Shown here piece by piece: positions 7,112 through 48,100 of a DNA stretch of 64,000 nt. The DNA is taken from positions 1 to 64,000 of IMG/VR virus record IMGVR_UViG_3300045988_113959; one strand, 5' to 3'. A program made the position numbers and the translations under genes. The stretch comes from a virus. The notes beneath the pieces were generated by a model, which was not told the DNA's origin, did not search any database, and saw nothing but the letters and a program-made list of their open reading frames with translations. Each line of letters starts with the position of its first letter. The stretch's first letter is position 1.

Positions 7112-7195
7112 TTTAAACAACAGTTCCTCTGCACTGTAAACAGAGAATATATAAAATTTTAATCATTTTATTTAACCTCTATCAAAGAGGAATAT

Positions 7196-7267
7196 CGCGG
7201 CGTATATCAGAGGTAGATTATTAGGCTCATAACCTAAAGGACGGTGGTTCGATTCCACCCGCCGCAA
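7196..7267 (+). tRNA. tRNA with CAU anticodon (Met; initiator-like C1-A72 mismatch)
   Basis: Hand-folded cloverleaf: acceptor cgcggcg/cgccgca, D arm tatc-agaggta-gatt, anticodon arm ttagg-CTCATAA-cctaa, variable aggac, T arm ggtgg-ttcgatt-ccacc. Confidence 0.8.
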
Positions 7268-7516
7268 CAACAGATTTTCATAATTTTAAATACATAAAAG
7301 TTAATTTATACAATCAATGTATATTAGTATAAAATATAATAAAGATGGTGTAGCATCTATAAAACCTGCACATTTATACTCTACAGTGTATGGGCGCAGT
7401 CAGCATCAATATGCAAGACACGTACGATAATGCGCGTTATATAAATAACGTGGTGTAGTTTTAACTCACTAGAGTATAACATTGCCCTATGGTGTAATGG
7501 TAGCACAAGAGATTCT

Positions 7517-8500
7517 TAGAGATTCAATAACTAATAATTGATATGACAAATAAAATATATAAAGAAACGGACGAACAGTTTATTTCTTTAATAAAAGAAA
7601 GCTGCAATATCTCAGAAGTTTTATTTAAATTGGGATATAGTATAACAGGAAATTCTTGGGGTTTTTCACAAGTACGTAGACGAATGGATGAATTACATTT
7701 ATCGCCGTCAGACTTTAAAGGGAAATCTATTTTTAAAGAAAAAGCAAGCGTCTATAAAATAGACCCCAAAAAACTATTAAAAGAAAACTCAAAGCATCAA
7801 AGAACTGTATTACGTAGATACATATTGAATAATAATTTAATTCCATATAGGTGCGCAATATGCGGAATTGTTGAGTGGAATAATAAAACACTTAGCTTAG
7901 AGTTAGACCATATTAATGGTATAAATAACGATAATAGATTAGAAAACCTAAGATTTCTTTGTCCAAATTGTCATAGTCAAACCACTACATACGGAAGTAG
8001 AAACCAACAACGCAATGAATCAAAATATACAATTACAGATGATTTACGAACACTTGTAGAATCTACTTACGATACTTGTAAAAGCGTTAAAAGAACATCT
8101 GCTTTATTAGGAATACGTAGATGTGTTGTTACGCAAATAGTAAATGAGTCTGGTCAAAAACACTCAAATCAAAAGTATGTTATACGTTATGATGCCAATC
8201 ATAATGAAATAAAACGATATGGCAGCTTGGTAGAAACTGCAAAAGATTTAATTGCGAACGACGAGGTTACTACAAAACGTATAAAAACATGTACACGTAC
8301 TATAATGCGAAACAAAGATAACTTTTGGCTAAATAGTTATTGGGTTATATTGGATGGTTGTGGGATAATAAATAATCCACAATTAGAATCTTCTCTAAAT
8401 ATCTCGGAAAACAATGTTGACGAGGCGCAAGCTAAATGCAGCGTGACAGACTGAACGAGAAGACTGACCTTTGGGTTGGATGCAACAGTCGGTTTAACAA
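7517..8500 (+). mobile_element. putative group I-type intron in the tRNA anticodon loop (boundaries +/- 2 nt)
   Basis: Sequence between the two tRNA halves. It carries an HNH ORF. The 3' end (about 8420-8500) is GC-richer with agactga repeats and a gactg/cagtc helix (8462-8466 / 8486-8490). The ribozyme core was not folded. Confidence 0.45.
7543..8454 (+). CDS. HNH homing endonuclease (inside the tRNA insertion)
   Basis: CAICG...LELDHINGINNDNRLENLRFLCPNCH is a classic HNH/zinc-finger motif. 303 codons, no in-frame TAG, TGA stop. Confidence 0.85.
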   Translation: MTNKIYKETDEQFISLIKESCNISEVLFKLGYSITGNSWGFSQVRRRMDELHLSPSDFKGKSIFKEKASVYKIDPKKLLKENSKHQRTVLRRYILNNNLIPYRCAICGIVEWNNKTLSLELDHINGINNDNRLENLRFLCPNCHSQTTTYGSRNQQRNESKYTITDDLRTLVESTYDTCKSVKRTSALLGIRRCVVTQIVNESGQKHSNQKYVIRYDANHNEIKRYGSLVETAKDLIANDEVTTKRIKTCTRTIMRNKDNFWLNSYWVILDGCGIINNPQLESSLNISENNVDEAQAKCSVTD

Positions 8501-8565
8501 GCCCTCTTGGTCTGGGTTCGAATCCTAGTGGGGTAACAAAACAAATATAAATTAAAATAATACGA

Positions 8566-9114
8566 ATGGAACTGAAAATTAAAAGATTGAATAATAAGGC
8601 TATAATGCCTATACGCGCACATAAAGGTGACGCAGGACTTGATTTAACAGCTACAGATATAACACTTGAACAAAATGAATGTGGTCAAACTGTAGTTGTA
8701 TACCATTGCGGTCTAGCTGTAGAAATACCAGAAGGCTATGTTGGTTTGATATTCCCTCGTTCTTCAATTGCTAAGAAATCTATGTTTATGACTAATGCTG
8801 TAGGTGTTATTGACTCTGGTTATAGAGGTGAGATTACAGCAAAGATGCATGTTACAACTGATGCAAGACCAGCTATGTATATGATTGGTGAAAGATTTGC
8901 ACAGCTTATTATTATGCCTTTGATTGATGTAGATATTACAGAGGTTTCTGAACTTAGTGAAACAGAACGTGGAGAAGGTGGTTATGGTTCCAGCGATACG
9001 AAATTGAGCGCACCTGATGCTTCAGAAGTTAGTGTACAAGACGTTGATACTAAAACCAATGAAGATACGACGGTAGCGGCGGACTCAACTGAGGAGTCTG
9101 AGGTAGCCGAGTAA
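8566..9114 (+). CDS. dut: dUTP diphosphatase with acidic C-terminal extension
   Basis: dUTPase motifs GDAGLDL, PRSS, IDSGYRGEI and ERGEGGYGSS. No in-frame TAG, TAA stop. Confidence 0.9.
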   Translation: MELKIKRLNNKAIMPIRAHKGDAGLDLTATDITLEQNECGQTVVVYHCGLAVEIPEGYVGLIFPRSSIAKKSMFMTNAVGVIDSGYRGEITAKMHVTTDARPAMYMIGERFAQLIIMPLIDVDITEVSELSETERGEGGYGSSDTKLSAPDASEVSVQDVDTKTNEDTTVAADSTEESEVAE

Positions 9115-9174
9115 CGCGTGACAACGCTACGGGAAGCGGCGTTATAATTATAGAAGAGCAATGCTTCCATGTTA

Positions 9175-9204
9175 AGGGGATTACAATAAAGTTGTAATTC
9201 CCTT
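9175..9204 (+). terminator. hairpin downstream of dut
   Basis: aggggattacaa-taaag-ttgtaattccct forms a 12-bp stem (one G-U pair), followed by T-rich sequence. Confidence 0.5.
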
Positions 9205-22395: not shown

Positions 22396-22418
22396 GATAA
22401 AATAAATTATAAATAATT

Positions 22419-23423
22419 ATGAATAATACTTTACTTAATGGTTTACAGTTGTACAGAGGAAAACGCTTCTCTGACCTTGTAGACGAAAATATGATTTCTA
22501 ATGCTTTGTTAACAAAGCCTCATGAAGTTGCAGGTATCTTATCTCTTGTATTTGGTACTAAAGATGATGGTGTATCAACTACTATCGATATGATTACTGG
22601 TGGTCTTGGTAAAACAATGACTATCGAAAATAGAGAATATGAGTGGGCTGTTCAAATCGACCAAGACCACGCTGTAAATATTCTCTACGCAAAATGGAAT
22701 GGTCAACTAATCACAGCTGGTACACAGGTTACCGCTGGTATTGGTAACTCTCCAATTTATATAGCTCTTGAAGAGAAGTACTTCGGTCCTGGTGCAATCT
22801 TGTCATTCGACAACTATAGATTCCAGGTTCGTGTTTCTGGTACACCTTATCAAGATGGTAGCGCTTGGGTTTATGAATGCTACGTTGCTGATGCAGGTTC
22901 TGGTGCATATATTCCTTCTGAATACTTGCTCCCAGGTCGTCAGGTAAGTCGTATAGGTTCTGCTTACGAAGAGTATTCAGACGAGGCGGATATCCTGAAC
23001 TATCAGACTCCATTTAAGATGCGTAATAACTTGATGACAATGCGTCTTTCTTACGATATTACAGGTGATGCTTACTCTACTGTATTGGCTATTGCTCTTA
23101 CAGACCCTGAAACGGGTAAGAAGTCTTACTTGTGGGCAGACTATCAGTACTGGTTGGCTCTTCGTGAATGGAAGAAGCGTGAAGAGTATCAATTACTCTT
23201 TGCTAAATCTAACCGCAATGCTGATGGTACATACTCAAATAAAGGTACAAATGGCAGACCTGTTGCTATCTCAGCAGGTTTGTTCGAGCAGATTAGCCCA
23301 GCTAATACTCGTTACTACACAACTCTAACATCAGAATTGCTTGAAGATTACTTGTTTGACCTTTGCTATAATATGCTTGGTACAAACGAACGTAAGTTCA
23401 TTGCATTAACTGGAGAGATGGGT
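22419..23423 (+). CDS. major capsid protein, exon 1 (335 codons)
   Basis: Biased codon usage (ggt/cgt/gct/tct), no TAG, and position after the scaffold-like gene. The reading frame is cut by TAA at 23424 right after ...LTGEMG. Confidence 0.7.
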
Positions 23424-24413
23424 TAAATATAGCTCCTTATAATAGTGATATTATAAAGCAAATTTACTGAATTGCTGGAAAATCTTAAAGAATTTATTAA
23501 CATAGATTAACAATATAAATTATGAACACATAGATGTTTAATAGACAATCAGCAGCTAAGACATTACACAAACCTTTAAGAGGATTTGAGTTTAGGTATA
23601 TAATATATATAGATGGTATAGTTTATGATAGATTTACAAAGAATACTGTAAAGAATATAGATGGTACTGTAACTATATTTGGGTCTAATAATAAACCATA
23701 TAAATATAATATTGGTAAACTTTTAGACAACACATTTAAAGATATTGATTTTTCATAGCATGTAGAACTAAACAATCACCCTGGTTATATAATAAATAAA
23801 AATGGTTCTTTATATAATACTGTTAGTAAAAGATTTGTTGGTACTACTATAAAACACGGTTATATAAGGTATAATGTAGATTGGAGTAGAAGAATGATGC
23901 ATGAAGTTCTTGCTGACCAATTTATACCAAATCCAAATAAATACAATTCTATAGACCATAAAGATTGCGATAAGCTAAATAATAGTTTAGATAACTTAGA
24001 ATGGTGTGATATAGAAGAGAATAAAAGAAGAGCATACGACAATGGACTAATGTACGTTGTAAAACAATCTGTTACATTTTATAATGAATGTGAAAGGTTT
24101 ACATTAATCGGTCTTGAAGATGCTGGAAAGATATTTGGAATAAAAAAATCTACACTGTGTACAATGATAAAAAGATATGGCAATAAAGATATATATATAC
24201 CAAGTGGCTCTATGAAGGGTTATAAAATAAAAACTCAAAAGTGTAAATGTAAAGTTCAACGACTATCCGAAATGGAGTAGGGTTCAAGCGAACTCGAAGT
24301 GGTAAATTACTCAAATGAGTAAAAGATATAGTCTAATCACATATGAAAGTATGTGCGGTGTTAATGGTCTAATACGCCGAGTTTAAAGTAGCGATTTAAA
24401 CTAAATATAAATG
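23424..24413 (+). mobile_element. group I intron (T4 td-like, IA2-type) in the capsid gene
   Basis: The exon ends GGGT|TAA..., as I recall for td, with gctc (23432-23435) able to pair with gggt as P1. The 3' part, ttcaagcgaactcgaag ... agatatagtct ... cacatat-gaaa-gtatgtg ... ataaatg|, parallels the td core as I remember it. Length is 990 nt, ending in G. Confidence 0.65.
23522..24322 (+). CDS. intron-encoded HNH homing endonuclease (3 in-frame TAG)
   Basis: NNHPGYIINKNGSLYN and IDHKDCDKLNNSLDNLEWCDIEEN are HNH_3-type motifs. Track ORFs 23534 and 23894 share one frame. TAA at 24320. Confidence 0.8.
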
Positions 24414-24902
24414 TTCAGAGAATTTGACCGTATCCTTAAAGATAAAGTTGCTAACATGCAGCTCATTGATACTAAGTTCATCACTGGTAATGGTCAAGAG
24501 TTAACACTCGGTGGTCAGTTCACAACTTACAAGATGACAAACGGTATCGAATTGACTCTTAAGAAGTGTGCGTTGTTTGACAACATGGAAATGTTCCGTC
24601 AACTACACCCACTGTCAGGCAAACCATTGATGTCTTACACATTCTTGTTCCTCGACCTCGGTATGCGTGATGGTCAGGCTAATATTGTTAAGGTTTGTCG
24701 TAAGGGTCGCGAATTTGTACAATGGTGTACAGGTGGTTCTGTAATCCCAAGTGGTTACGGTTCTTCAAAAGATACTCTACGTTCTAATAGCCGTGATGGT
24801 TATCAGGTTCACTTCTTAGGCGAAGAGGGTATCATGGTTAGAAACCCATTGGCTTGTGGTGTACTTTACTGCGATGCTGATGATTCAGAATATACAGCCT
24901 AA
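24414..24902 (+). CDS. major capsid protein, exon 2 (162 codons)
   Basis: Same codon bias as exon 1 and in phase with it once 990 nt are removed. TAA stop, followed by a strong hairpin. Confidence 0.7.
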   Translation, partial: FREFDRILKDKVANMQLIDTKFITGNGQELTLGGQFTTYKMTNGIELTLKKCALFDNMEMFRQLHPLSGKPLMSYTFLFLDLGMRDGQANIVKVCRKGREFVQWCTGGSVIPSGYGSSKDTLRSNSRDGYQVHFLGEEGIMVRNPLACGVLYCDADDSEYTA

Positions 24903-24968
24903 TTGAAATAACGAGTCTCGCCTCGACTCTTATATTCCAATCCTGACGGATTGAAATAACGAGTCTCG
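24902..24968 (+). repeat. 19-nt perfect direct repeat (attgaaataacgagtctcg) x2, 48 nt apart
   Basis: Copies at 24902-24920 and 24950-24968, read directly, immediately after the capsid gene stop. Confidence 0.7.
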
Positions 24969-24992
24969 TTCGTCTATATAATGTATAATATA

Positions 24993-25027
24993 AAAAGGGT
25001 TCATGGTTGTTATCACCAGACCCTTTT
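24993..25027 (+). terminator. hairpin terminator after the capsid gene
   Basis: aaaagggt ... tggt-tgttatc-acca ... accctttt forms a nested stem ending in a T-run. Confidence 0.5.
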
Positions 25028-25071
25028 ATATTAACATTATATACGGAACAACACTAATTTAAATAAATATT

Positions 25072-25824
25072 ATGGTAGTTGAATTAAGAATTAAGAAAAA
25101 AAATCCATGGGCTGGCTTATTAAAGTACAGCAGATGTTTTGATTATATCGCCCCTTATTTTACAAGGTCAGGCTCGATATATACTGGACTTACTCCAGAA
25201 GATGAAAAACATTTTGAAAAAGTTTTAGGTTATAATGATGGTCATTTGTCTCGTACAAGTGATTTTTGGACAACCTTCTGTGTAAAAATTGGTGCCAAAC
25301 CATTACTTTTAGATGATTCTATTCCACGTCAGGAAATGATTATTAAATTCCTAACTGGTCATAAAAGAGTTGCTACATCGCTTGATAAGCTTGATGCTGG
25401 TAAAGATTACTTGCTAATTAATCGTCAAGCTGAAGCTGTAGAACAGAATAAGATTAATAAACTTCGTAGAGATGCTATTCGTGAATTTGATAAGCTTAGC
25501 TTAGAGCAAATGCGTAAGTGTCTTAGATTGTTTGGTGTTAAATCAGATGACCTTTCTAACGAACTTGTAGAATCTACATTATTTACACTTGTTGATAAGA
25601 ATCCTAAAAAGTTCTTCGATAAGTGGATTGATAATAAAACTAAAGACACAGAATTTATTATTGAAGAAGCTATTTCTAAAGGTGTTATACGTAAAGATAA
25701 GACGAACTATTATTATGGTTCAGATATGTTTGCTACATCACTTCAAGAAGCTATAGCTTATTTAGATAATAAAAAGAATCAGGATTTAAAGCTTGTTATT
25801 ATTAACGAAGCAAGTAATAAATAA
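25072..25824 (+). CDS. virion-module protein, function unknown (250 aa, no TAG)
   Basis: Uninterrupted ORF ending in TAA TAA, directly downstream of the capsid gene. Confidence 0.65.
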   Translation: MVVELRIKKKNPWAGLLKYSRCFDYIAPYFTRSGSIYTGLTPEDEKHFEKVLGYNDGHLSRTSDFWTTFCVKIGAKPLLLDDSIPRQEMIIKFLTGHKRVATSLDKLDAGKDYLLINRQAEAVEQNKINKLRRDAIREFDKLSLEQMRKCLRLFGVKSDDLSNELVESTLFTLVDKNPKKFFDKWIDNKTKDTEFIIEEAISKGVIRKDKTNYYYGSDMFATSLQEAIAYLDNKKNQDLKLVIINEASNK

Positions 25825-27392: not shown

Positions 27393-28078
27393 AATACATA
27401 GACATACTTGAAGCCTTTGAAACCGAGATTGGCGTTATAAACGATATCAAGAAGCCAACAACAACAGACTCTTTATTCTGGATTAATCAAGCTGTTGATA
27501 AATTTACTAAGATAAGGTTTAACAGCGACTTTATACATAAAACATCATACGAACAAAATGAGAAGCGTAGGAACGATTTAATTAACTTATATACAAGTAA
27601 AAAGTATACTACGTTTAATTACAACAACAATGACCCATTGTATGATGTATATGAAATTGAAAATTATCCAGATGATTTCTTATTCTCTTTAAATGAAGAT
27701 GTAATAATAACAAATAACGATGGTGGTAATAAATACAGCACTAGTATATTTGAATGTACATCTGATAGTTTTATGTATAGAGTTACAAATAGTCTAACAG
27801 ATTTCCATTATAAGTATGGGATAGCTAGACCATTAAGAGTTTGTACAGCTACTGGTTGTAAACTTCTTACGGATAAAAACTATAAAATATAGGAATACGT
27901 GCTTGGGTATTTAAGAAAGCCAAGCAAGATAACACTTGATAATCCTTTCGAGGAATACCAAGATTTTGATAACATAACAATGCCTGAGATTATTAAAATA
28001 GCAGCACAAATGTATTTAGAAAATACAGGTAATGCTAGATATAAGTCTATAACTCAGGAAGTTATGACACAAGAATAA
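27389..28078 (+). CDS. virion-module protein (229 aa, 1 TAG)
   Basis: Track ORF 27389..27892 continues past its TAG to TAA 28076-28078. Confidence 0.6.
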
Positions 28079-28162
28079 TTTTAACGTGGAAAGCCGTGGT
28101 TGTGTATTATATATACAATGAGTGTGCGGTGAGTAGAAAAAATTAATTTAAAACATTATATT

Positions 28163-29239
28163 ATGATTACATATGTAAATGACGTTTTTGTAAGTAACGT
28201 TGGTGAGCTTATTGCAGCTGACACCTCAACACTTGCTAAAGATAAAGCTGAACAGATTGACAGCGTTGGTAAGCTTATTATAGCTGATATGGAGAATCCA
28301 AACGTTGGTGTTGCTACAGTTAACGCTTCTGCTAAAGCTATTAGAATCGGTCTTGTAACAAAGAAAGTTTCTACAGTAATTGAACCTGATGGCACTATGA
28401 AGTTTGCTCCTGTTATTGATTGGACAAACCCAATTCAAAAGGATGCTATTAAAAACTTCGCTTGTGAAAAATATCAGGCTGACGAAGCTGAAAAAGTTGC
28501 AGTTAACTTTGCTGCTGTTACAGATGTAAATACTGTAGATAAGCTTAAGACTTCTGGTCATAGCGTAGTTCTTCGTATCGTTTACAAAGATATGAATACT
28601 CGTTATCGTAAATGGACAGAATCTTACGAATATGTTACAAAAGAAGGTGATACAGTTGCTAAGATTTCTAAGGCATTTGAAGCTATAATTAATAAGGACC
28701 ACAAGAGGGCTCGTGTTATAGCTAAAGATAACGCTGGTGTTTTGACTCTCGAAGCTATGCCTTACGATGATGATAACTCAGTTAACTCTATCAGTCCTGC
28801 TGCTACAGTACGTTTCAGCGTAAGTGTTTGGGTTGCTTATAACGATATTGCAGGTATTAGCGCAATTGGTTCTAATAAGAAAGTATCTCTCCCTGGTCTT
28901 GAAATTAAGAAGACTCCTGGTAAGGTTTATACAGCGTCTGCTAAGTATGTACGTGACCGTGAAGCTGCTGCTATGGGTTACGATGGTATTCTTAACCGTG
29001 GTAATGGTACTCTTATTGAAGCTAACCTTCCAGAAATGAATGTTAAGCTTGATGGTAAGTATGATGCTATTACTCTTCAGTTTGAGAACATGTATCGTTC
29101 TGCTGATGACCTCCACAGAATTGCTAAACAATCTGTAGAGATTTACCCAATAGAAGGTAAAGGTGCTGCTATTAAGGCAGCTCTTGCTGCTTTTGTTCCT
29201 GCTGATGTTAACGAATCAGTAGCTTCAATTAAGCTTTAA
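28163..29239 (+). CDS. abundant structural protein candidate (358 aa, no TAG)
   Basis: Capsid-like codon bias, TAG-free, and followed by a strong terminator. The exact role (auxiliary capsid or tail) is not determinable here. Confidence 0.65.
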   Translation: MITYVNDVFVSNVGELIAADTSTLAKDKAEQIDSVGKLIIADMENPNVGVATVNASAKAIRIGLVTKKVSTVIEPDGTMKFAPVIDWTNPIQKDAIKNFACEKYQADEAEKVAVNFAAVTDVNTVDKLKTSGHSVVLRIVYKDMNTRYRKWTESYEYVTKEGDTVAKISKAFEAIINKDHKRARVIAKDNAGVLTLEAMPYDDDNSVNSISPAATVRFSVSVWVAYNDIAGISAIGSNKKVSLPGLEIKKTPGKVYTASAKYVRDREAAAMGYDGILNRGNGTLIEANLPEMNVKLDGKYDAITLQFENMYRSADDLHRIAKQSVEIYPIEGKGAAIKAALAAFVPADVNESVASIKL

Positions 29240-40078: not shown

Positions 40079-42166
40079 ATGGTTTACTCGAGAGATTAGT
40101 GGGTCCAGCTCCCAGTTAGAGATTTATACGATTCTCAGATAATGCTGGCATCTATAAACGCTGCAAGAGATATGTATCAGCGAGGTGTAGATGAAATGAA
40201 GGAATTTAAAAGGGAGTATGGAGATTTCTATAGTCCTATACAGAAAGATATGGATTGGTATACAACCAATGTTACTTAGGGTATGAGAGATACCATAGAA
40301 GACTTATATGCTAGAGGAATCGACCCACTTAGGTCTGCCGAAGGTAGAGCCATTATATCAAGGAGAATTAACAATGCTCCTATTGGGGAAATAAATAAAT
40401 TAAAGATGGCTTCTAAAACAGCTCAAGAATATCTCAAAAATAGGGGTGTTCTTGAAGCTCAAGGTAGGTATAATAAAGACTATGAAGACTTTGTCAATGG
40501 TGGTAAGACTATTGAAGATTGGGATACTCTTAGAGATGGTATTTGGACAAGACAAGCTCCATCATAGTTTATGACATTAAAAGAAGCTACAGAGAACTGG
40601 TATAATAATAGAACACCACATTCACTTACACAAAAAGAAGTTGAAGGTTTTGGCGTTAAATACGATAAAAGATATAATTATACAGGATTTACAAAGGACG
40701 ATTTACTTGGCATTGCAGCTAAAAATACTCCAGGTTGGAACGGTTCTCAAATAGCTGACTACTATAGAAATGTAGCAAAGAACTAGTTATTATCAGAAGG
40801 TATTGAAAAGCCAACCAATTAGCAAATAGAATACAGATTGTAGCAGAATGTCGCTGCCGCTAATGACGAGTATAAGATTAAACCTATAGAACAGGTTAAT
40901 CAGTATGCAATGCTCGATAAGCAACAAGCATATCAAACACAAGCTCGTAGAGAAGGCTTTGCTCACGATAGGGAAATGGCAGCATTTAATGCAGCTAAAC
41001 AGAGAGAGATGGCATATCTACAATGGAGGTTATCAAATTCTACTCCAGATGGAAATGGTAATCCTGCACTTAAGAACCAACAACAGCAACCAATTCCTCT
41101 TTCATTTACAGAATAGCTTATAGAGTCTGCAAATAGAAAGAAGACTGATAATATAGCTGGTCCAAAGAACTTCCAAGCAAATACTAAGAAGATATCAGAT
41201 TATTGGTTAGGTAAGGCTTATAGTGTATTAAGTAAAGCCGACAGTAATGGAGATGGTAAACTATCTAAGGACGAACAAGCAAACTGGAAAGTTAGATATA
41301 GTCGTTTATCTCCATATCAAAAGAAACTTTACGATAATGCGATACATCATAGAAATTGGTGGAATAAAGTTTCAGCTGAAGGTTATGGTAACGCTGCCAA
41401 AAACGGACTTATAGATAAGTTTGGTAATGTAACAAGTAGATTTACTAACGCTATGGCTTATTCTGATAAGAATACTGGTAATAATGGTTATAGTGATAAT
41501 GAAAGAAATAGAATAAACTCTAAATACTATAACAATGTATTTACAGATATCAATGAAGAAGGTAGAAAACAAATAATAAATCTTCTTACAGGAGGAAATG
41601 AAGAAAATTATGTAATAGATGAGAAAAAATCTAAGTTTGGAAAGAAACATCCTGTATTAAACTTTTCAGAAAGTGGAGTTTGGTTTGGAAATTATAGAGC
41701 GCATAATGCGTCTACTGGAAGAGATTTAACAAATGGTAGTATAAGTAAAACATTCCAAAATTTCCTCAAGAGAAACAAGGTAAAAGGCTGGGTTGTTAGT
41801 AAAAATGGAATCGGTGTAACAACTGTTCCAAATAGAGGTAAGGGTCAATCCTTGGATATTTTAGCAAATGTTTCAGTACCATATAGTGTGCTTGAAAGGT
41901 ATGCAAATTCTATAGGAGTTGGCTCTTCTAATATTCCTCAATTGATAAGGAGTTTAGGTTTAAGAATGATGAATGTTAATGGTGATACTATAGATAAGAA
42001 AGAAGATAATACGTTTGTAGAAATACCAGTATCTAAGCAGATAGATAACAATGGCGGTCAAGGTTATGGACAAGTAGACACTTCTTATGATAAGAGTTTA
42101 TTTGGCGGAAAAGAAGCCGCAGCAAGAGAAATACAAAGACAATATAAATCTTCATAGACAAGATGA
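40079..42166 (+). CDS. virion (likely ejected/cargo) protein with EF-hand-like loop (695 aa, 8 TAG)
   Basis: Frame 2 joins track ORFs 40283, 40571, 40910 and 41453. It ends at a TGA that overlaps the next ATG (ATGA at 42163). Confidence 0.65.
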
Positions 42167-45100
42167 TTAATATGAGATATAAGAGTTTTAATAATGGTAG
42201 TAAAAATAAAACTTCATATACAACTCCTAGTGCAAACGCATGGTTAGCCAGTTTTGAGCAAAATAAAGCCGCTCAAAACCAGGCTTTCTCTGCGCCTTAT
42301 AATAGTGGTATATATAAAGGAGACGCTACTTCCATTTACAATGCTCCCGCTACGTATAGTTATGTGGACAACGGAGCAAGCATAGAGCAAGATTCATGGC
42401 TCGACAAAGCAAAAAGCTTTATTGATAATTTAAATTCATCAACATTAGCTCTTACTGTTGGTATGGCTATTGGTGATGTTGGTTTTAAAAACACAGCGAG
42501 GGCGTTTACACAAAAAATGCTCGAAACTTCATCTAGTGACGATTTAGCTAAAATAGATGATTATCAGCAAGGTCTTAATGATATATAGCTCGTTGAAGAG
42601 TATAGTAAATTTCAAAATGACAAAAGTAAGCTCGAAGCACTTATGAATTACCATATAAAATCTGGTGGTAGTACGAGTGATATAGAATATCAAACACTTA
42701 AAGTTCAATATGATGAAGCTAATAAGCAAATAAAGAGTCTTGATGATTATTTTACAGGAGAAGGTAGAAATCATCAAGTTGTCAGAAAACTTATGTACAA
42801 TCTTGACAATGTATCAACTTCTGATAAAATTAAAGCAAACGCATCTTATATATTTCAAAACTTAGGTGGAAATGATAAATGGTATGATGGTCCGATTCAA
42901 TTATTAAACCTTGGTAAAAACATTCTAAATTACGGAGCTAATTATTTAGGGAAGCTTGGAAATGCTACAGGATTAACTAATAATTCATATTACAATACAG
43001 CTATAACAGAGCAAGCAATCATGAACTCTGATTCATTCTTAAATCTTTACAAGAAAAATCAAAAACAATACGACGTAAAGAAAGCTCAGGAATGGAAGAA
43101 GTATTTTAAAGATATGATTGCAGAAAAAACCGTAGAATATGAACAAGATAAATATGCTGCAAGAACTGGTAATGTAACACTTGGTTAGATGGCTAGTGCT
43201 ATTCCTGTTATAAGTATGTTATATGATGGAAGTGTGAGTAATTCTCTAAACCTAAAAAGAAATGCTTTAAAAAATAAAGATAATTGGGCTAATGGAACTA
43301 TAAAACTTTATAATCCAGAAGATATTCCAGAATCATTTAAACAAGGTGTAGATAAGTTTGGTGAAAACTGGTATGATTTTATTATACATCCCCAATATGC
43401 TGCTGTACAATCTGCATCTAGCGTTGCTATGATGAAACATACTCTTAATGCTCAAGGTGTAGATGCGTTATTAATGTTTGCTGCTAAAAAACTTCCAGTT
43501 ATAGGTTGGGCTGCAACTGGAGCATCTGTTGCTAATAGTATTAATTCTGCGGTTAAACAGCGCGAGCAAGAAACTGGAATGGAAAAGATTCAAGGTCTTG
43601 GTACAAGAGTATTCTCTGAACTTGCCGCTACAGATGAAAGAAATATAAGTAATGTTATATCTGAAATTAAAGATTATGCAAGAAGAAATAATCTTGATAC
43701 AACAGATATGACTCCTCAAGAACTTATAGAGATGGGTGTTGCTTTTAATGTACAAACAGACAACTCAGCATTTGAACAAATTAAAAAAGATGCAAGAAAG
43801 GGTATAAATAAACTTGTTAATGCGAATAACGCATTAGCTTTGATGGATTATGCTCAACAAATGCCATTCTATTCATTCGGTGGTAAAGCTTTAAATAAAT
43901 TTGCTAAAGCTGTTATTAATAGTAGAGCTAATCAAGCTATAGCTAAATTTTTAAGCCCTTCTTTACGAGCAGCATCATCTAAGCTATCACAACCAGTAAT
44001 GGAAGAACTTGTTGGCGTTCAAGATTATTTACCTACATTTAATGGTATCTTTAATGCTGCTACAGATAAAATAGCAAATAGATTTATAAAGAAAGAAGCA
44101 GCTTCTGCAGAGTAGTTTGCAAGCAATATGACAAAAGGTCTTTATACAAAGTCTTTAGGTAATTATTTAAAAAATAAAAGCAAACTTTTACTCGCAGAGG
44201 GTATTTCTGAAGGAATTGAAGAAGGTCAACAGCAGATATTACAAGATAGATACGCAAGAGGACTTTATGACGAATACGGAAAAGATGCTAATATATTAGA
44301 TATAGATGAAGTATTTGGCAATGTAGGTCTCGCTGGCGAATCTGTTCTTGCTTATTTTGGTTTAAGACCATTTGATAAGAACTTGAATACTGATGAGATT
44401 AGGAAGGCTATGAATATAGGTTTTGCTTCATCTATTATACAAAGTGGAGTTCAGCATTCGCTTAAAAATGTATTACCATCTAAGTTTAGAAATGGTGATA
44501 GTTTTAGAGATTTTGTACAACAAGTAAAATCAGACAGAACTGTAACAAGCCTTATAGGTAAACATTTTGAAGACCTTGACGACCAGTCTCATCTTGAATT
44601 ATTTTATAATGCATTTAGAAGCGGAATTACTGATAAACAGCTTATAACATCTATGAATAGACTTAAGGGTTAGCTTGATGAAAGTAATCCCTTTATAAGA
44701 AAGTCTAATATGGATGCTGATATATAGTTAATGCAAAACGCATATAATTTATATAACAATAAAGAAATCAGAAAGACTTTAAACGAAGCTGGTATTGAAA
44801 CTTTTAGTGATAAATATAAAAACTTCGTAATAACTGGAGCTAAGAGAATAACAGACTATCAGATGAGTAATGATGCTGCTAATCAAAATGCAATAGAAGT
44901 TGATAGGCTTAATCATGAAAGAGCTAATATTGTAGATATGCTATTTGAAGGAACTTTGTCAGATGATGAAATAAATAAGATTCAAAGTGAAAATCCTAAG
45001 CTTGCGAAAACAATTAAAAAACTTAGTGATGAATATGAATCTACTAAAGAGTCTATAGATAAGAAGCGTAAAGATGATTTTAATTTATTTACCAAAGAAC

Positions 45101-48100
45101 TAAGTAACTTTGACTCGTTTAAAAACAATAAACATATAAGAGAGTATGTTTCGCAAAATCATGCAAGTGGTAGGCTTGGAAAAGCTGCATTTGATGAAGA
45201 TATAGCAAGTGTGTTTGGAAATGCTTCTTTAAAAAATTCAGCTATAGAATACGCATTTAGACAAGCTCATAAAGAGCAATTTAATAACTTGTCTAAAAAT
45301 TTCAACGATGCTATAAAAAATAAGTTTATAGTTAAAGCTTTACGTTCTAAACTTAATGCCGAAGTAATATATTCTTCTTTAATTGATAGATTTAAAAACG
45401 ATAAAGATTTTTCTGAAGAGATAAGAAGCATTGCTGAGGATTATGCTTTTAACAACAACGTATCTAAAGCTGAATTTATTAAAGAAAGAATAGCCGTATT
45501 AAATTCTCGTAGACAACTTAATAATATAAGAAAGATATTATCATTATCTGAATCAAGGTTGGAATTTCTTAATTTATATCAAATAGAGACTGGTCTTGAT
45601 ATAGATACAAGTAAGCTTGGAACTCTTATATCAGAACTTAAGAGAATGGAGAAAGGTCTTGTTGATGAACAAAATAGAGTTCTTGGGAATAAGAAAGGTA
45701 AAATAAACTATACATATGATGATTTGTTTGAAGACGACATTGAGGAGTATGAAATAGATAATGATAATTCTTATGACTAGGCTGTTACAAGATACTTTAT
45801 AAATAAAGCTTCTTTGAAATCTCAAAAGATATTAGCTCAAATGTATTCTCTTGCTGGTAATAAAGATATATCTATAAATCCAATATCTCTTAATGAAGCT
45901 ATAAATGGTACAAATAGAACTGACGTGTTTAATGAAGAACTCACCCAGTTTGAGAAGATGAATGCTAGGCTTAATTCTAGGAATGAATTAGAATCTGAAC
46001 ATGTTGATGTGTAGGTTACTCGTAAAGATATGAGCGAAGTTTCTAAAAAAGCTCAATTAAAACAGCTTCTTAAAGACCTTGAAGACCAAGAACATAGATA
46101 TAGAATAGCTAATAGGTTATGGAAAAATGCACCAGTTACAGAAGTAGATTTAAATGATGCTACAGACGGTGATGAAGAAGCTTAGGATAAAGTTGATTCA
46201 GCAGTGGATAAAATCATCAATGCTGCAGATAGCGAAAAATCTAATACTACTGAAGGTGAAGTGCCTGCAAGTAGTGAGCTTATAACTCCTGATACGTTAC
46301 ACCAAGAAGACGAGCTTGCTGAAAGATATATGAATAGAAATAAAACTCGTGATGATAGAAAGCGTAAACAAAAAGAAAAAGCTCTGAATGGTAAAAAGGA
46401 TACAGATGATGTTGAAGATAATAATTCTAAAGAAGAACTTAAAGAAAGCCCAAAAGACCCATTAAGCTCTCTTATTAATGGAATGATGGCTGATGATTCT
46501 GATGTTAACGAAGAGGGTGATGGTGGTGAAACCGTTCCAAGTAAAGATACACCAGCTAAAAAATAGCCAGAAAACAAACCAGCCAAATCTACAAGTACTC
46601 GAGATGAAGATGATATTGATAGTATTATAGATAATGGTGATAAAACAGATTCTGAACTTGATTCTAAAACTGAAAAACAGAAAGATGATTATTTAGAAGA
46701 AGAATTTCCAGATGATGCTGATTATGAAGAACCTGAAGAATATATTGAAGATGATTCTGAAACTCAAGAAGCTGCTGTTGAATTAGAGTTAGAAGACGAT
46801 GATGTTCAATAGACTGCGTCTGAAGTTGAAGCTGAGGTATTAAACGATGAAATTGATATTCAAGAAGCTGCGGCAGAAGCCGAGGCTGAATCTTTTGAAT
46901 ATATAGAAGATGCTAGTGATATTGATACAGAAGATTATAGTACAACCGGAAGGGTAAAATACAAAGATAAAGTTCTATCTAAGAAGCAGTCTAAACAATT
47001 AATGGACGAGCTTATAATATTAGGTAGGGCTGAGATTGATGGATTTGACCAAAAAGAACTTCCAGATGGAACTGTGCAAGATGTTGAGATGTATAGAATG
47101 AATGTTACAGATGATACTATAGGTAGTTTTATAAGCAATACATTCTTCTATCAACCAAATCCAGACTTATTTGAAGAAACTGGAGAATATGAATTAATGA
47201 AGCTTACTGTTAATGGTGAGCAAGTTAAGCTAAATAAACCTTTAGCATCTGGCAAGCAATTGTCTGAAAAGCTTTCTCAAGAAGGTTGGTTACAGTCTAC
47301 AAAAAAATACTATATAGTAACTCAATCTCAACAGTCCGAGAAGAATACTATAGGCGACGTTAGAGACTCAATGACCGTATGTCTTATACTTGAAGATGAC
47401 AATAATACATACGCTACTACTCTTAGAGCTCTTGGATTAATGGTTAGTGATATACCTGGAGACCCAAATGGTAAATATACAGTATCTCAATAGAAGAATT
47501 TAATTGACAGATTAATAACAAAAGGTGTTGATTTTTCTAAGATATTAAAGCCAGGGCAAAGATTACCAAATAGTTATAGCAGAAGGGCTAAGTTAGCCAT
47601 AGATGCTATAAACGCAATGGAAATGAAGCTTGCTAAATCTTGGTGGATTAGTCAGGGTAGAAAAGAAAGTGATTTTGAAAACTGGTGGTTACATAAACCA
47701 TTAAAGAAAGATTATCACAAATCTGAATATGAGAATGAATACAAGCAAGATTTAACAACTTGGAGGAATGTACATACTCAATTTAAAATACTTGCAAGAA
47801 AACATTATCAAAAACCTGGTAAGAAAATGCTTACCGAAGAAGCTATAAAAGACCAAATAAATGGTCTTAGAGAGCTTAGAAATAGTATAATTGATAAGTA
47901 TTTAGAAAAAAGAATTATCAAACAAAATGGTAAAGAAGTTGTTGAATATATATTCCCAGAACATGTTAGAGATGATGTAACTCCATCTTATGTTCAACAA
48001 AGTAATGGTGTTATAGATAATGTTAAAGAGAAGAGAGTTGTTGGTAATAATGGTTCAGCTACAATAGATTAGATACAAACTCAAATAAACGACGGAAGTA

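What the first reader, a model, noticed from the sequence alone, without database searches (positions are those of the whole stretch)
7483..8536. tRNA gene split by an HNH-carrying intron of about 1 kb; the anticodon is CUN and may be the amber suppressor the recoding needs
Two tRNA halves lie 1 kb apart and fit one cloverleaf, with a 7/7 acceptor pairing (tgcccta/tggggta) and canonical D and T arms. The body looks Gln-like, with U1-A72 and the ATGGTGTAATGGTAGCAC D-arm. The 5' half ends with anticodon-loop bases U32 U33 C34 U35. The third anticodon base therefore depends on the splice junction, which I cannot fix by hand. Joining ...TTCT(7516) to A(8500)GC-CCTCT gives a 7-nt loop UUCUAGC, which is anticodon CUA. 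In that model the 5' exon ends in U, but the intron would end in A rather than the usual G. Using G8501 as the terminal intron base gives loop UUCUUAC (anticodon CUU), with the exon ending in A. In both models the 31-39 pair is A-C. No other CUA tRNA is visible in this window. ORF-bearing introns in tRNA genes are, to my knowledge, unusual for phages. If this is the suppressor, splicing would gate recoding. The embedded 303-codon HNH gene has no TAG, which fits translation without suppression, but at the local TAG density this absence is not statistically significant.
Basis: partly seen in the sequence, partly recalled or inferred. Interest (0 to 1): 0.85.

Follow-up and report, generated by a model that had tools for sequence, protein, structure and literature searches.

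The report
Self-splicing intron inside phage amber-suppressor tRNA
The only candidate amber-suppressor tRNA gene of this stop-codon-recoded crAss-like gut phage is split by a 983-base mobile group I intron carrying an HNH endonuclease, which hides the gene from standard tRNA finders, and the intron ends in A instead of the nearly universal G.

Summary
Window 7483-7516 and 8500-8536 are two halves of one Gln-type tRNA, split by a 983-nt insert (7517-8499).

The junction is now fixed. Intron-less alleles with identical exons exist in about 95%-identical phage genomes, and they differ by an exact insertion between CUCU and AAC. The anticodon is therefore C34-U35|A36 = CUA, not the CUU that ARAGORN reports.

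The insert is a group I-type ribozyme. P3, P4, P5, P7 and P8 covary, and P3 and P7 form the pseudoknot (98.8% of cells paired, 20 of 28 pairs compensatory). A covariance model built only from non-tRNA relatives hits 8382-8493 at 82 bits. A guide sequence, UUGGA, matches the ligated exons UCU|AA.

The HNH reading frame (7543-8454) sits in the P1 loop and runs through the guide sequence and P2 to P7.

The window is heavily TAG-recoded, with 33 in-frame TAGs in one 5,684-codon frame. No other tRNA-CUA was found.

In 30 distinct related junctions the intron ends in G. In this clade it ends in A, although the G-binding pair is unchanged, so accurate splicing is inferred and not shown. "Splicing gates recoding" follows logically, but the patchy distribution of the intron points to a selfish homing element. 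Verdict: a new variant of a known kind.

The parts
7196..7268 (+). tRNA-Met(CAU), the neighbouring intact tRNA (context only)
   Evidence: ARAGORN; Rfam tRNA model 60.9 bits
7483..7516 (+). tRNA 5' exon: acceptor 5' strand, D arm, anticodon stem 5' strand AGAGA, and loop bases U32 U33 C34 U35
   Evidence: Sequence. ARAGORN with intron search. Orthologous to the 5' part of uninterrupted tRNA-CUA genes.
7517..8499 (+). Group I-type intron, 983 nt. First base U7517, last base A8499 (the omega position).
   Evidence: The boundaries are transferred from exact insertion/absence comparisons in relatives: a 977-nt insert between CTCT and AAC in L031 versus L149 and in L046 versus L131. They also rest on the uninterrupted loops CUCUAAC and CUCUAAA.
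7524..7541 (+). Small hairpin (UCAAU / AUUGA) immediately before the HNH start codon, inside the P1 loop. Role unknown.
   Evidence: Read from the sequence. Comparable hairpins (for example AUUCGAU...AUUGAAU) occur in relatives. Not tested statistically.
7543..8454 (+). HNH homing-endonuclease reading frame, 303 codons, no in-frame TAG. The last ~35 codons are encoded by the ribozyme core, and the TGA stop (8452-8454) lies in P7.
   Evidence: ORF list. Pfam HNH PF01844, 23.2 bits against a cut-off of 21.4. PHROG 10822 'HNH endonuclease', E 3.5e-43 over residues 2-249. TAG count.
8350..8354 (+). Internal guide sequence 5'-UUGGA-3'. GGA pairs with U33 C34 U35 (P1, with G8352.U7516 at the splice site). 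UU pairs with A36 and G37 (P10).
   Evidence: In ORF-less relatives the guide lies directly 5' of P2 and pairs with the exon end, for example ACCCCU/GGGGGU and AUGCAU/GUGCAU. ATTGGATG is conserved in all tRNA-inserted copies. The pairing in the window itself is inferred.
8358..8382 (+). P2 hairpin with the conserved loop AUAAUAAAUAA
   Evidence: Alignment A1. The stem changes by paired substitutions among relatives: TTGTGG/CCACAA, TAGTGG/CCACTA, CTTAAAG/CTTTAAG.
8389..8395 (+). P3 5' strand (UCUUCUC), pairs with 8457-8463
   Evidence: RNAalifold. All 7 pairs carry compensatory changes.
8403..8444 (+). P4 (8403-8406 / 8421-8424), P5 (a short helix, 8410-8411 / 8417-8418) and P6 (8425-8428 / 8441-8444)
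   Evidence: P4 and P5 covary. P6 is invariant, so it neither supports nor contradicts the fold.
8447..8453 (+). P7 5' strand (C-[A bulge]-GACUG), with the invariant G8449 of the G-binding pair. Forms a pseudoknot with P3.
   Evidence: Pairs in alignment columns 128-134 / 179-184: 4 of 6 carry compensatory changes and G-C (130-183) is invariant.
8457..8463 (+). P3 3' strand (GAGAAGA)
8464..8479 (+). P8 hairpin (CUGAC / GUUGG)
   Evidence: All 5 pairs carry compensatory changes.
8486..8491 (+). P7 3' strand (CAGUCG)
8492..8499 (+). Short 3' tail GUUUAACA with no P9 hairpin. The last base, A8499, sits where relatives have the terminal G.
   Evidence: 3' junction table for relatives
8500..8536 (+). 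tRNA 3' exon: A36 G37 C38, anticodon stem 3' strand CCUCU, variable loop, T arm, acceptor 3' strand and discriminator A. No encoded CCA.
   Evidence: Sequence; ARAGORN; orthologues
8566..9114 (+). dUTPase gene, the syntenic anchor shared with intron-less relatives (context only)
   Evidence: Pfam dUTPase, E 1.9e-23; annotated neighbours in cr124_1 and cr7_1

Best explanation
Window 7483-8536 is the phage's Gln-type amber-suppressor tRNA gene (anticodon CUA). A 983-nt mobile group I-type intron interrupts it between U35 and A36 of the anticodon loop.

Architecture:
- The ribozyme core (guide sequence, P2 to P8, with a P3/P7 pseudoknot) occupies 8350-8491.
- An HNH homing-endonuclease gene sits in the P1 loop. 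It reads through the guide sequence and the 5' half of the core and stops inside P7.

Proposed sequence of events:
1. The pre-tRNA is transcribed with the intron.
2. The guide UUGGA pairs with the loop bases UCU (P1, with a G.U wobble at the splice site) and with the first exon-2 bases (P10).
3. Exogenous G attacks after U7516.
4. The freed exon 1 then attacks after A8499, joining the exons into a 72-nt tRNA that reads UAG, probably as Gln.

Because the genome uses in-frame TAG massively and no other tRNA-CUA is visible, production of the suppressor depends on this splicing step.

At the DNA level, the HNH enzyme would cut intron-less alleles in co-infecting relatives so that repair copies the intron in (homing).

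Shown here: the tRNA halves, the junction, the folded core with covariation, the HNH domain, TAG recoding, and the presence/absence polymorphism.

Inferred: that splicing occurs and is accurate although the last intron base is A instead of G; the identity of the inserted amino acid; endonuclease activity; and the timing of events.
For: tRNA and junction:
- ARAGORN with intron search finds one tRNA spanning 7483-8537. The spliced CUA model folds as a cloverleaf.
- Uninterrupted orthologues with anticodon CTA lie near dUTPase in cr124_1, cr7_1, Dulem virus 42 and cr130_1.
- Ninety uninterrupted family members matched in IMG/VR have the loop CUCUAAC (47) or CUCUAAA (43).
- Genome pairs 94-98% identical in their flanks differ by an exact 977-nt insertion between CTCT and AAC.

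Ribozyme:
- RNAalifold predicts P3, P4, P5, P6 and P8.
- Counting these plus the P7 pseudoknot gives 98.8% paired cells. Twenty of 28 pairs have compensatory changes, 0 of 500 shuffles reach the observed values on four of the five measures, and slid controls give 36-46% paired.
- A covariance model built from 20 non-tRNA relatives only hits window 8382-8493 over its full length at 82 bits, E 1.9e-15. It is the only significant hit in the 64 kb.
- An ORF-less relative matches Rfam Intron_gpI end to end with the same helix assignment, at 22.3 bits, E 0.0014.
- The guide sequence lies next to P2 in ORF-less relatives.

Endonuclease: the HNH domain is confirmed.

Dependence on the suppressor:
- TAG recoding in the window includes a 5,684-codon frame with 33 TAG and a 1,561-codon frame with 19 TAG. 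Sister contigs of the same clade have 1,177-1,179-codon frames with 11-15 TAG.
- No other tRNA-CUA is found in the window or in the complete relative PV686213.

Mobility: the intron is 88-91% identical within the clade, while the exons are 72-88% and the flanks 46-82% identical.
Against: - The last intron base is A, not the G that the second splicing step normally needs, and the P7 G-binding pair is unchanged.
- The window's anticodon arm has three changes not seen in any relative examined: an A31.C39 mismatch, U32 and G37. This could mean reduced function.
- Rfam Intron_gpI does not hit the window even at E<=10, and the family scores below Rfam's gathering score.
- The P1 pairing with the exon is only 3 bp.
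- There are no RNA data.
- Only 64 kb of a genome of about 100 kb is visible.
- The one complete relative, PV686213, has no long reading frames under any code and looks error-ridden. Its lack of another tRNA-CUA is therefore weak evidence.
Confidence: 0.8

Rival explanations
1. The gene is a decaying relic. The A at the intron's 3' end blocks exon ligation, and the window-specific changes in the anticodon arm mark a tRNA no longer under selection. Suppression of TAG would then come from another tRNA outside the 64 kb window or from the host.
For: - The intron ends in A with an unchanged G-binding pair.
- A31.C39, U32 and G37 are seen only in the window.
- About 35 kb of the genome is unseen.
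- Yutin et al. raise host-encoded suppressors as a possibility.
Against: - The A-ending intron is found, intact and 88-91% identical, in at least six different exon backgrounds and about 15 independent contigs. Sister contigs examined are TAG-recoded. A lethal insertion in the only suppressor would not spread like this.
- The HNH frame and every core helix are intact in the window.
- No other tRNA-CUA is found in the window or in PV686213.
- A natural A-ending group I intron is known to splice accurately in vivo (PMC6545197).
Confidence: 0.12
2. The intron is an evolved control point. Splicing efficiency, or competition between translation of the HNH frame and folding of the overlapping ribozyme core, times the appearance of the suppressor and so the switch to TAG-containing late genes.
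For: - The suppressor cannot exist before splicing. This is a logical consequence.
- The HNH frame overlaps the guide sequence and P2 to P7, so ribosomes on it and ribozyme folding should exclude each other.
- The HNH gene and neighbouring genes contain no TAG.
Against: - Genomes 94-98% identical exist with and without the intron, and about 90 uninterrupted copies of the same tRNA family were matched. The intron is therefore dispensable and patchy, as expected for a selfish homing element.
- The same ribozyme family sits in unrelated genes and carries other endonuclease types.
- There are no expression data.
Confidence: 0.15
3. The spliced tRNA carries anticodon CUU (Lys), as ARAGORN reports. 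Exon 1 would end at A7518 and G8501 would be the last intron base.
For: ARAGORN calls tRNA-Lys(ctt) for the window and several relatives. This model restores a terminal G in the window.
Against: - ARAGORN's intron placement is unreliable here. It gives Lys, Leu, Ser or 'Pyl(cta)' for equivalent genes.
- Sister sequences have A, not G, at the position of G8501.
- Intron-less alleles read CTCT|AAC with no ambiguity at the boundaries.
- Exon 1 would end in A, which cannot form the G.U wobble with the guide sequence.
Confidence: 0.02
4. A free-standing HNH gene has simply landed in the tRNA gene. There is no ribozyme, and the tRNA is destroyed.
For: Rfam finds no group I intron in the window.
Against: - A covarying P3-P8 core with the P3/P7 pseudoknot is present.
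- An independent covariance model scores 82 bits.
- A relative aligns end to end with Rfam Intron_gpI.
- The guide sequence is complementary to the ligated exons.
- The insertion lies exactly after a U.
Confidence: 0.02

Closest known systems
Bacterial group I introns in tRNA anticodon loops: cyanobacterial tRNA-Leu(UAA) and tRNA-fMet (the latter encoding I-Ssp6803I in Synechocystis), Azoarcus tRNA-Ile(CAU), and alpha-proteobacterial tRNA-Arg(CCU). This comparison rests on my own knowledge. The Azoarcus pre-tRNA structures are in PMC13168695, which appeared in the search results but was not read.
   Same: - A self-splicing group I intron inserted after a U in the anticodon loop.
- Very short exon-guide pairing, 3 nt as in Azoarcus (CAU/GUG).
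- The anticodon stem flanks both splice sites.
- In the tRNA-fMet case, the intron also carries a homing endonuclease specific for the anticodon region.
   Different: - The host is a phage, not a cell.
- The target is a stop-codon suppressor, on which the phage's altered genetic code depends.
- The endonuclease is HNH. It lies in the P1 loop and overlaps the guide sequence and P2 to P7.
- There is no P9 hairpin.
- The last base is A.
- The core resembles phage-type introns, not the bacterial tRNA-intron type. I did not assign a subgroup.
Phage group I introns with HNH endonucleases in protein-coding genes, for example Bacillus phage SPO1/SP82 DNA-polymerase introns (I-HmuI, I-HmuII) and Staphylococcus phage Twort (I-TwoI). 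Own knowledge. Group I introns in crAss-like Delta-group MCP, PolB and primase genes are described in PMC10136315.
   Same: - A mobile phage group I intron with an HNH homing endonuclease.
- Patchy presence among close relatives.
- The intron is better conserved than its flanks.
   Different: - It interrupts a tRNA gene, not a protein-coding gene.
- Here the endonuclease frame overlaps about 100 nt of the catalytic core.
- No blastn match to any annotated intron in 50,697 phage records.
Hexacoral mitochondrial ND5-717 group I intron
   Same: It ends in A instead of the conserved terminal G, yet gives perfectly ligated exons in vivo (PMC6545197).
   Different: - It is an organellar, obligatory and giant intron carrying host genes in P8, and is thought to depend on unusual processing (back-splicing).
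- It is unrelated in sequence and setting to a compact phage tRNA intron.
'Enigmatic' tRNA introns of Lak megaphages (Devoto et al., bioRxiv 10.1101/356790)
   Same: tRNA genes of gut phages that use an alternative code are interrupted by conserved introns, and standard bacterial tRNA finders miss them.
   Different: - The text seen reports no ribozyme class and no endonuclease gene for the Lak introns. [quoted passage not shown]
- The tRNAs named there are Phe, Gly, Thr and Tyr, not a suppressor.
- Their splicing mechanism was left open.

Membership tests
Group I intron | Conserved core of P3-P4-P5-P6-P7-P8, with P3 and P7 forming a pseudoknot | tested here: met
   98.8% of cells are paired and 20 of 28 pairs have compensatory changes. 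Slid controls give 36-46% paired. RNAalifold finds P3, P4, P5, P6 and P8 independently.
Group I intron | G-binding site: a G-C pair in P7 next to a bulged nucleotide | tested here: met
   G8449-C8490 is invariant in 42 of 42 sequences. It is preceded by a bulged A or C and a covarying closing pair (A-U, C-G or G-C). Its function was not tested.
Group I intron | The 5' exon ends in U, paired to a G of an internal guide sequence (P1). The guide also pairs with the 3' exon (P10). | tested here: met
   U7516 is the last exon base. UUGGA (8350-8354) is complementary to UCU|AA, with G.U at the junction. The guide's position next to P2 is validated in ORF-less relatives. Only 3 exon base pairs form.
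Group I intron | The last intron nucleotide is G (omega-G) | tested here: not met
   The window ends ...GGUUUAACA|AGC, and its whole clade plus L014 end in A. Thirty distinct related junctions end in G. The element is therefore homologous to canonical group I introns but departs from them at this defining position.
Group I intron | Reaches the gathering score of Rfam RF00028 | tested here: not met
   The window gives no hit even at E<=10. Fifteen relatives give none at the gathering score. The ORF-less relative L037 scores 22.3 bits against a threshold of 50, over the full model length.
Group I intron | GTP-dependent self-splicing with exon ligation | not testable with these tools
   Needs an in-vitro transcript or RNA from infected cells.
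Amber-suppressor tRNA (Gln-type) | Cloverleaf after intron removal, with canonical D and T arms | tested here: met
   ARAGORN on the spliced sequence gives a 72-nt tRNA. One flaw is the A31.C39 mismatch at the base of the anticodon stem.
Amber-suppressor tRNA (Gln-type) | Anticodon CUA | tested here: met
   The junction is set by intron-less alleles and exact insertion comparisons. The loop reads UUCU|AGC.
Amber-suppressor tRNA (Gln-type) | Gln identity (charged by GlnRS) | tested here: inconclusive
   - U1-A72, the D arm and the T arm match Bacteroidales tRNA-Gln, 55/72 identical at best. The search pattern itself required a YTG anticodon.
- Orthologues are annotated as tRNA-Gln.
- TAG is read as Gln in crAss-like phages according to PMC10136315.
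- Charging was not tested.
Amber-suppressor tRNA (Gln-type) | The genome needs it: in-frame TAG in long conserved frames | tested here: met
   A 5,684-codon frame has 33 TAG, a 1,561-codon frame has 19, and many others have several.
HNH homing endonuclease | HNH catalytic motif | tested here: met
   Pfam PF01844, 23.2 bits against a cut-off of 21.4. PHROG 10822, E 3.5e-43.
HNH homing endonuclease | Encoded inside a mobile element that is present or absent at one exact site among close relatives | tested here: met
   L031 versus L149 and L046 versus L131 have flanks 94-98% identical and differ by an exact 977-nt insertion. This was shown for relatives, not for the window's own strain.
HNH homing endonuclease | Cleaves the intron-less target DNA | not testable with these tools
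   Needs a biochemical assay on an intron-less allele.

The most novel reading that the evidence does not exclude
Three linked claims make up the novel reading.
- A compact phage group I ribozyme that naturally ends in A (not G), lacks P9 and keeps an unchanged G-binding pocket nevertheless splices accurately. It may be helped by the tRNA anticodon stem holding the 3' splice site in place, or by a phage or host factor.
- This splicing is the obligatory step that makes the only amber suppressor of a TAG-recoded crAss-like phage. The phage's genetic-code switch would therefore depend on a ribozyme.
- The intron family homes specifically into suppressor-tRNA anticodon loops. It would account for at least some of the recoded phage genomes reported to have 'no suppressor tRNA'.
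Probability: 0.5. Interest if true: 0.8.

Novelty: new variant of a known kind. Interest (0 to 1): 0.68.

Why it matters
- **An open puzzle in crAss-like phage biology.** Surveys report that stop-codon reassignment and detectable suppressor tRNAs do not match, and that some recoded genomes seem to have no suppressor (PMC7886860; PMC10136315). Here the suppressor gene exists, but a 1-kb intron hides it from ARAGORN and Rfam. The same situation recurs in dozens of metagenomic contigs. Annotation pipelines should search for split suppressor tRNAs.
- **A dependence of recoding on RNA catalysis.** The intron makes translation of TAG-containing genes depend on an RNA-catalysed step. This can be tested directly.
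- **A natural test of the terminal-G rule.** The clade ending in A, set beside close relatives ending in G, is a ready-made comparison for how strictly the second splicing step needs a terminal G.
- **A tool lead.** An endonuclease that targets the anticodon-loop DNA of suppressor tRNAs could be useful for work on recoded phages.

Tried and rejected
- **Rfam on the window.** Neither the gathering threshold nor E<=10 gives a group I hit. Fifteen relatives at the gathering score give none either. The model is insensitive to this family and to a 900-nt insert in P1. I therefore used covariation counting and a purpose-built model.
- **ARAGORN's anticodon call (CUU).** Rejected. Its intron placement in the anticodon loop is unreliable, and it gives four different isotypes for equivalent genes.
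- **G8501 as the terminal G.** The spliced product is a 70-nt molecule that ARAGORN calls tRNA-Arg(UCU), and sister sequences have A at that position. Rejected.
- **PV686213 as a complete reference genome.** It has no long reading frames under any stop-codon set, so it probably contains many indel errors. I used it only as weak support for 'no second tRNA-CUA'. Its one odd tRNA call (anticodon 'tatg') is a poor cloverleaf and not a CUA tRNA.
- **Search for an annotated, cultured-phage homologue of the ribozyme** (blastn, distant mode). None found.
- **Literature.** Five full-text searches and the papers read from them found no report of a group I intron in a phage suppressor tRNA. The library is incomplete, so absence is not proof.
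- **A compensating change for the terminal A.** I looked in P7, the junction strands and the tail, and found none.
- **My own error.** The first attempt at the model alignment (A2) mis-trimmed one sequence, so I redid it as A3.
Full report
**1. What is at the coordinates**

- Bases 7483-7516 read TGCCCTA-TG-GTGT-AATGGTA-GCAC-A-AGAGA-TTCT.
- Bases 8500-8536 read AGC-CCTCT-TGGTC-TGGGT-TCGAATC-CTAG..., ending with the acceptor strand TGGGGTA and a discriminator A.

Standard ARAGORN and the Rfam tRNA model see only tRNA-Met at 7196-7268 in the whole window. ARAGORN with intron search reports one tRNA spanning 7483-8537 with a 983-nt intron. Between the halves lies a 303-codon reading frame (7543-8454) with an HNH domain. 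Pfam PF01844 scores above its cut-off, and PHROG 10822 gives E 3.5e-43 over residues 2-249.

**2. Context**

The window is a crAss-like phage. The closest record is a Bohxovirus (Crassvirales, Suoliviridae, Oafivirinae), 82% identical over 7173-9200.

The genome reads TAG as sense. When only TAA and TGA are counted as stops, the window shows:
- a 5,684-codon frame (42148-59199) with 33 in-frame TAGs;
- a 1,561-codon frame with 19 TAGs;
- many other frames with several TAGs.

Under the standard code the longest frame is 586 codons. The HNH gene and the dUTPase gene downstream contain no TAG. A review states that crAss-like phages read TAG as Gln (PMC10136315).

**3. Fixing the splice junction**

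Related phages carry an uninterrupted tRNA with anticodon CTA and loop CUCUAAA. In cr124_1, cr7_1 and Dulem virus 42 it lies directly upstream of dUTPase. In cr130_1 it lies one gene further upstream.

A pattern scan of IMG/VR matched 90 uninterrupted copies of this tRNA family. Their loops are CUCUAAC (47 copies) or CUCUAAA (43 copies). Some have exons identical to intron-bearing alleles of the window's own intron clade.

Two genome pairs settle the boundaries: L031 versus L149 and L046 versus L131. Their flanks align at 94-98% identity, and each pair differs by an exact 977-nt insertion between ...CTCT and AAC.... The bases at the two boundaries differ (T versus A), so the junction cannot slide.

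Transferred to the window:
- exon 1 ends at U7516 (U35);
- the intron is 7517-8499;
- exon 2 starts at A8500 (A36);
- the loop is UUCU|AGC and the anticodon is CUA.

ARAGORN's call of CUU reflects unreliable intron placement in the anticodon loop. It gave Lys, Leu, Ser or 'Pyl(cta)' for equivalent genes in relatives. The spliced CUA model folds as a 72-nt cloverleaf.

**4. The insert is a group I-type ribozyme**

Rfam does not recognise it, so I tested the fold directly.

A short core motif (GGCGCAAG...CAGCGTGA) occurs in 44 IMG/VR stretches of DNA. Many come from large phages, where the element is not inserted in a tRNA. On a 42-sequence alignment, RNAalifold predicts P3, P4, P5, P6 and P8. 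I then added P7, which forms a pseudoknot with P3, and counted the pairs:
- 98.8% of cells are paired;
- 20 of 28 pairs show compensatory changes;
- 0 of 500 shuffles reach the observed values on four of the five measures;
- controls with the partner slid by 1-3 columns give only 36-46% paired.

P6 is invariant, so it says nothing for or against the structure. P7 contains an invariant G-C pair next to a bulged base, which is the classical guanosine-binding arrangement.

A covariance model built only from 20 non-tRNA relatives hits window 8382-8493 over its full length at 82 bits, E 1.9e-15. It is the only significant hit in the 64 kb. An ORF-less relative, L037, aligns end to end with Rfam Intron_gpI using the same helix assignment, but at only 22.3 bits against a gathering score of 50.

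In ORF-less relatives the guide sequence lies directly 5' of P2 and pairs with the exon end. Examples are ACCCCU/GGGGGU and AUGCAU/GUGCAU. At the same place every tRNA-inserted copy has AUUGGAUG. Within it, UUGGA is complementary to the ligated exons UCU|AA, with a G.U wobble at the junction. This independently supports the U35|A36 junction.

**5. Anatomy in the window**

| Element | Coordinates |
|---|---|
| 5' exon | 7483-7516 |
| Small hairpin | 7524-7541 |
| HNH frame | 7543-8454 |
| Guide sequence | 8350-8354 |
| P2 | 8358-8382 |
| P3 | 8389-8395 with 8457-8463 |
| P4 to P6 | 8403-8444 |
| P7 | 8447-8453 with 8486-8491 |
| P8 | 8464-8479 |
| 3' tail, no P9 hairpin | 8492-8499 |
| 3' exon | 8500-8536 |

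The endonuclease gene sits in the P1 loop. It reads on through the guide sequence and P2 to P7, and its TGA stop is part of P7. The PHROG family profile ends near residue 249, so the last stretch of the frame looks like read-through of the ribozyme. A ribosome on this stretch and a folded core should exclude each other. This is an inference.

**6. Mobility**

Four observations point to a homing element.
- Near-identical genomes exist with and without the intron.
- Within the window's clade the intron is 88-91% identical, while the tRNA exons are 72-88% identical and the flanks 46-82%.
- A second subfamily has a P9 hairpin and an HNH frame that ends in P2. It sits in the same loop position of CUA tRNAs with different bodies in other phages.
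- The same ribozyme family occurs in other genes and carries a GIY-YIG or another HNH gene on its 3' side.

This is the signature of a homing element that targets the anticodon-loop DNA of suppressor tRNAs.

**7. The unusual point: the terminal base**

In 24 distinct crAss-type junctions and 6 of the second subfamily, the intron ends in G immediately before the first base of exon 2.

In the window's clade the intron ends in A (...GGUUUAACA|AAC; the window has |AGC). This clade comprises the window, seven other distinct IMG/VR junctions and six further metagenome contigs. One separate contig, L014, also ends in A.

I found no compensating change in P7 or elsewhere. Sister genomes of the clade are also TAG-recoded.

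A lethal insertion in the only suppressor gene should not spread across at least six exon backgrounds. I therefore infer that the A-ending intron is spliced in vivo. A natural precedent exists: the hexacoral mitochondrial ND5-717 intron ends in A and still yields perfectly ligated exons (PMC6545197). How the second step works here is unexplained. Candidates are tethering of the 3' splice site by the anticodon stem, or a helper factor.

**8. Cautions specific to the window**

- Its anticodon arm carries three changes seen in no relative examined: A31.C39, U32 and G37. G37 puts a G two bases past the 3' splice site. Using it would give a 70-nt product that is not a suppressor.
- Only 64 kb of the genome is visible.
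- The complete relative PV686213 shows no other tRNA-CUA, but its sequence looks error-ridden.
- I put the chance that this particular copy is non-functional at about 0.12.

**9. Comparison and novelty**

Several related things are already known.
- Group I introns in tRNA anticodon loops of bacteria, including one that encodes an endonuclease (own knowledge).
- HNH-bearing group I introns in phage protein-coding genes (own knowledge).
- Unexplained tRNA introns in Lak megaphages.

I found no report of a group I intron in a phage suppressor tRNA.

The new features are:
- the target, the gene on which the phage's altered code depends;
- the endonuclease frame in the P1 loop overlapping half the core;
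- the missing P9;
- the terminal A.

The finding also offers a concrete answer to the reported mismatch between recoding and detectable suppressor tRNAs in crAss-like phages.

Because the terminal-G criterion is not met, I describe the element as a derived relative of canonical group I introns. It is a new variant of a known kind.

Noticed in passing
L015, L018-L024 (for example L019 around 1430-1500 and 2440-2520): In one subgroup of intron-bearing suppressor tRNAs the D loop lacks the GG and the T loop reads GGCAGCA instead of TTCGAAT (...AAC CCCGG GGGA GTGGG GGCAGCA CCTAC ATGGGCG A). ARAGORN does not detect them even with intron search. The anticodon and acceptor stems still pair.
   Followed up: no
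L014, L027, L080, L092, L104, L108 (3' exons): Another subgroup has a conserved T-arm sequence, CCGGGTTCGA(T/C)TCGATGG, whose middle three stem pairs cannot form. It is conserved across diverged contigs, so it may be an unusual fold and not decay.
   Followed up: no
window 7524-7541: A 5-bp hairpin (UCAAU...AUUGA) ends one base before the HNH start codon. Relatives have comparable hairpins with different sequence (AUUCGAU...AUUGAAU). It may control endonuclease expression.
   Followed up: partly
window 42148-59199: A single 5,684-codon frame free of TAA and TGA but with 33 in-frame TAGs. I did not look at what it encodes.
   Followed up: no
window 7531-9114, 22413-25824, 28133-29239: Blocks of genes with no in-frame TAG sit among heavily TAG-containing genes. 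The intron's HNH gene lies in one of the TAG-free blocks.
   Followed up: partly
L074 + L075 (PV686213.1, complete Bohxovirus genome): The record is annotated with the standard code as 168 features, mostly short hypothetical proteins. The split tRNA is not annotated and the HNH gene is listed as hypothetical. The genome has no reading frame above about 900 codons under any stop-codon set, which suggests many indel errors.
   Followed up: partly
L044, L066, L058 (3' of the ribozyme core): In other phages the same ribozyme family sits outside tRNA genes and carries a different endonuclease gene downstream of the core. L066 has GIY-YIG (Pfam 37.9 bits) and L058 has an HNH_3-like gene just below the cut-off. 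One ribozyme scaffold has therefore acquired endonuclease genes more than once, at different positions.
   Followed up: partly
L004, L032, L050, L067-L072: A second subfamily of the tRNA-inserted intron occurs in other phage contigs of 55-151 kb. It has a P9 hairpin, a terminal G, and an HNH frame that stops in the 5' strand of P2. Where I could read or call the anticodon loop it is CUA, in tRNA bodies with different T arms. ARAGORN's calls were inconsistent or absent for L050 and L068.
   Followed up: partly
window 27727-27773: A weak match to the ribozyme model (12 bits, E 2.8). It covers only the outer parts of the model and is most likely chance.
   Followed up: no
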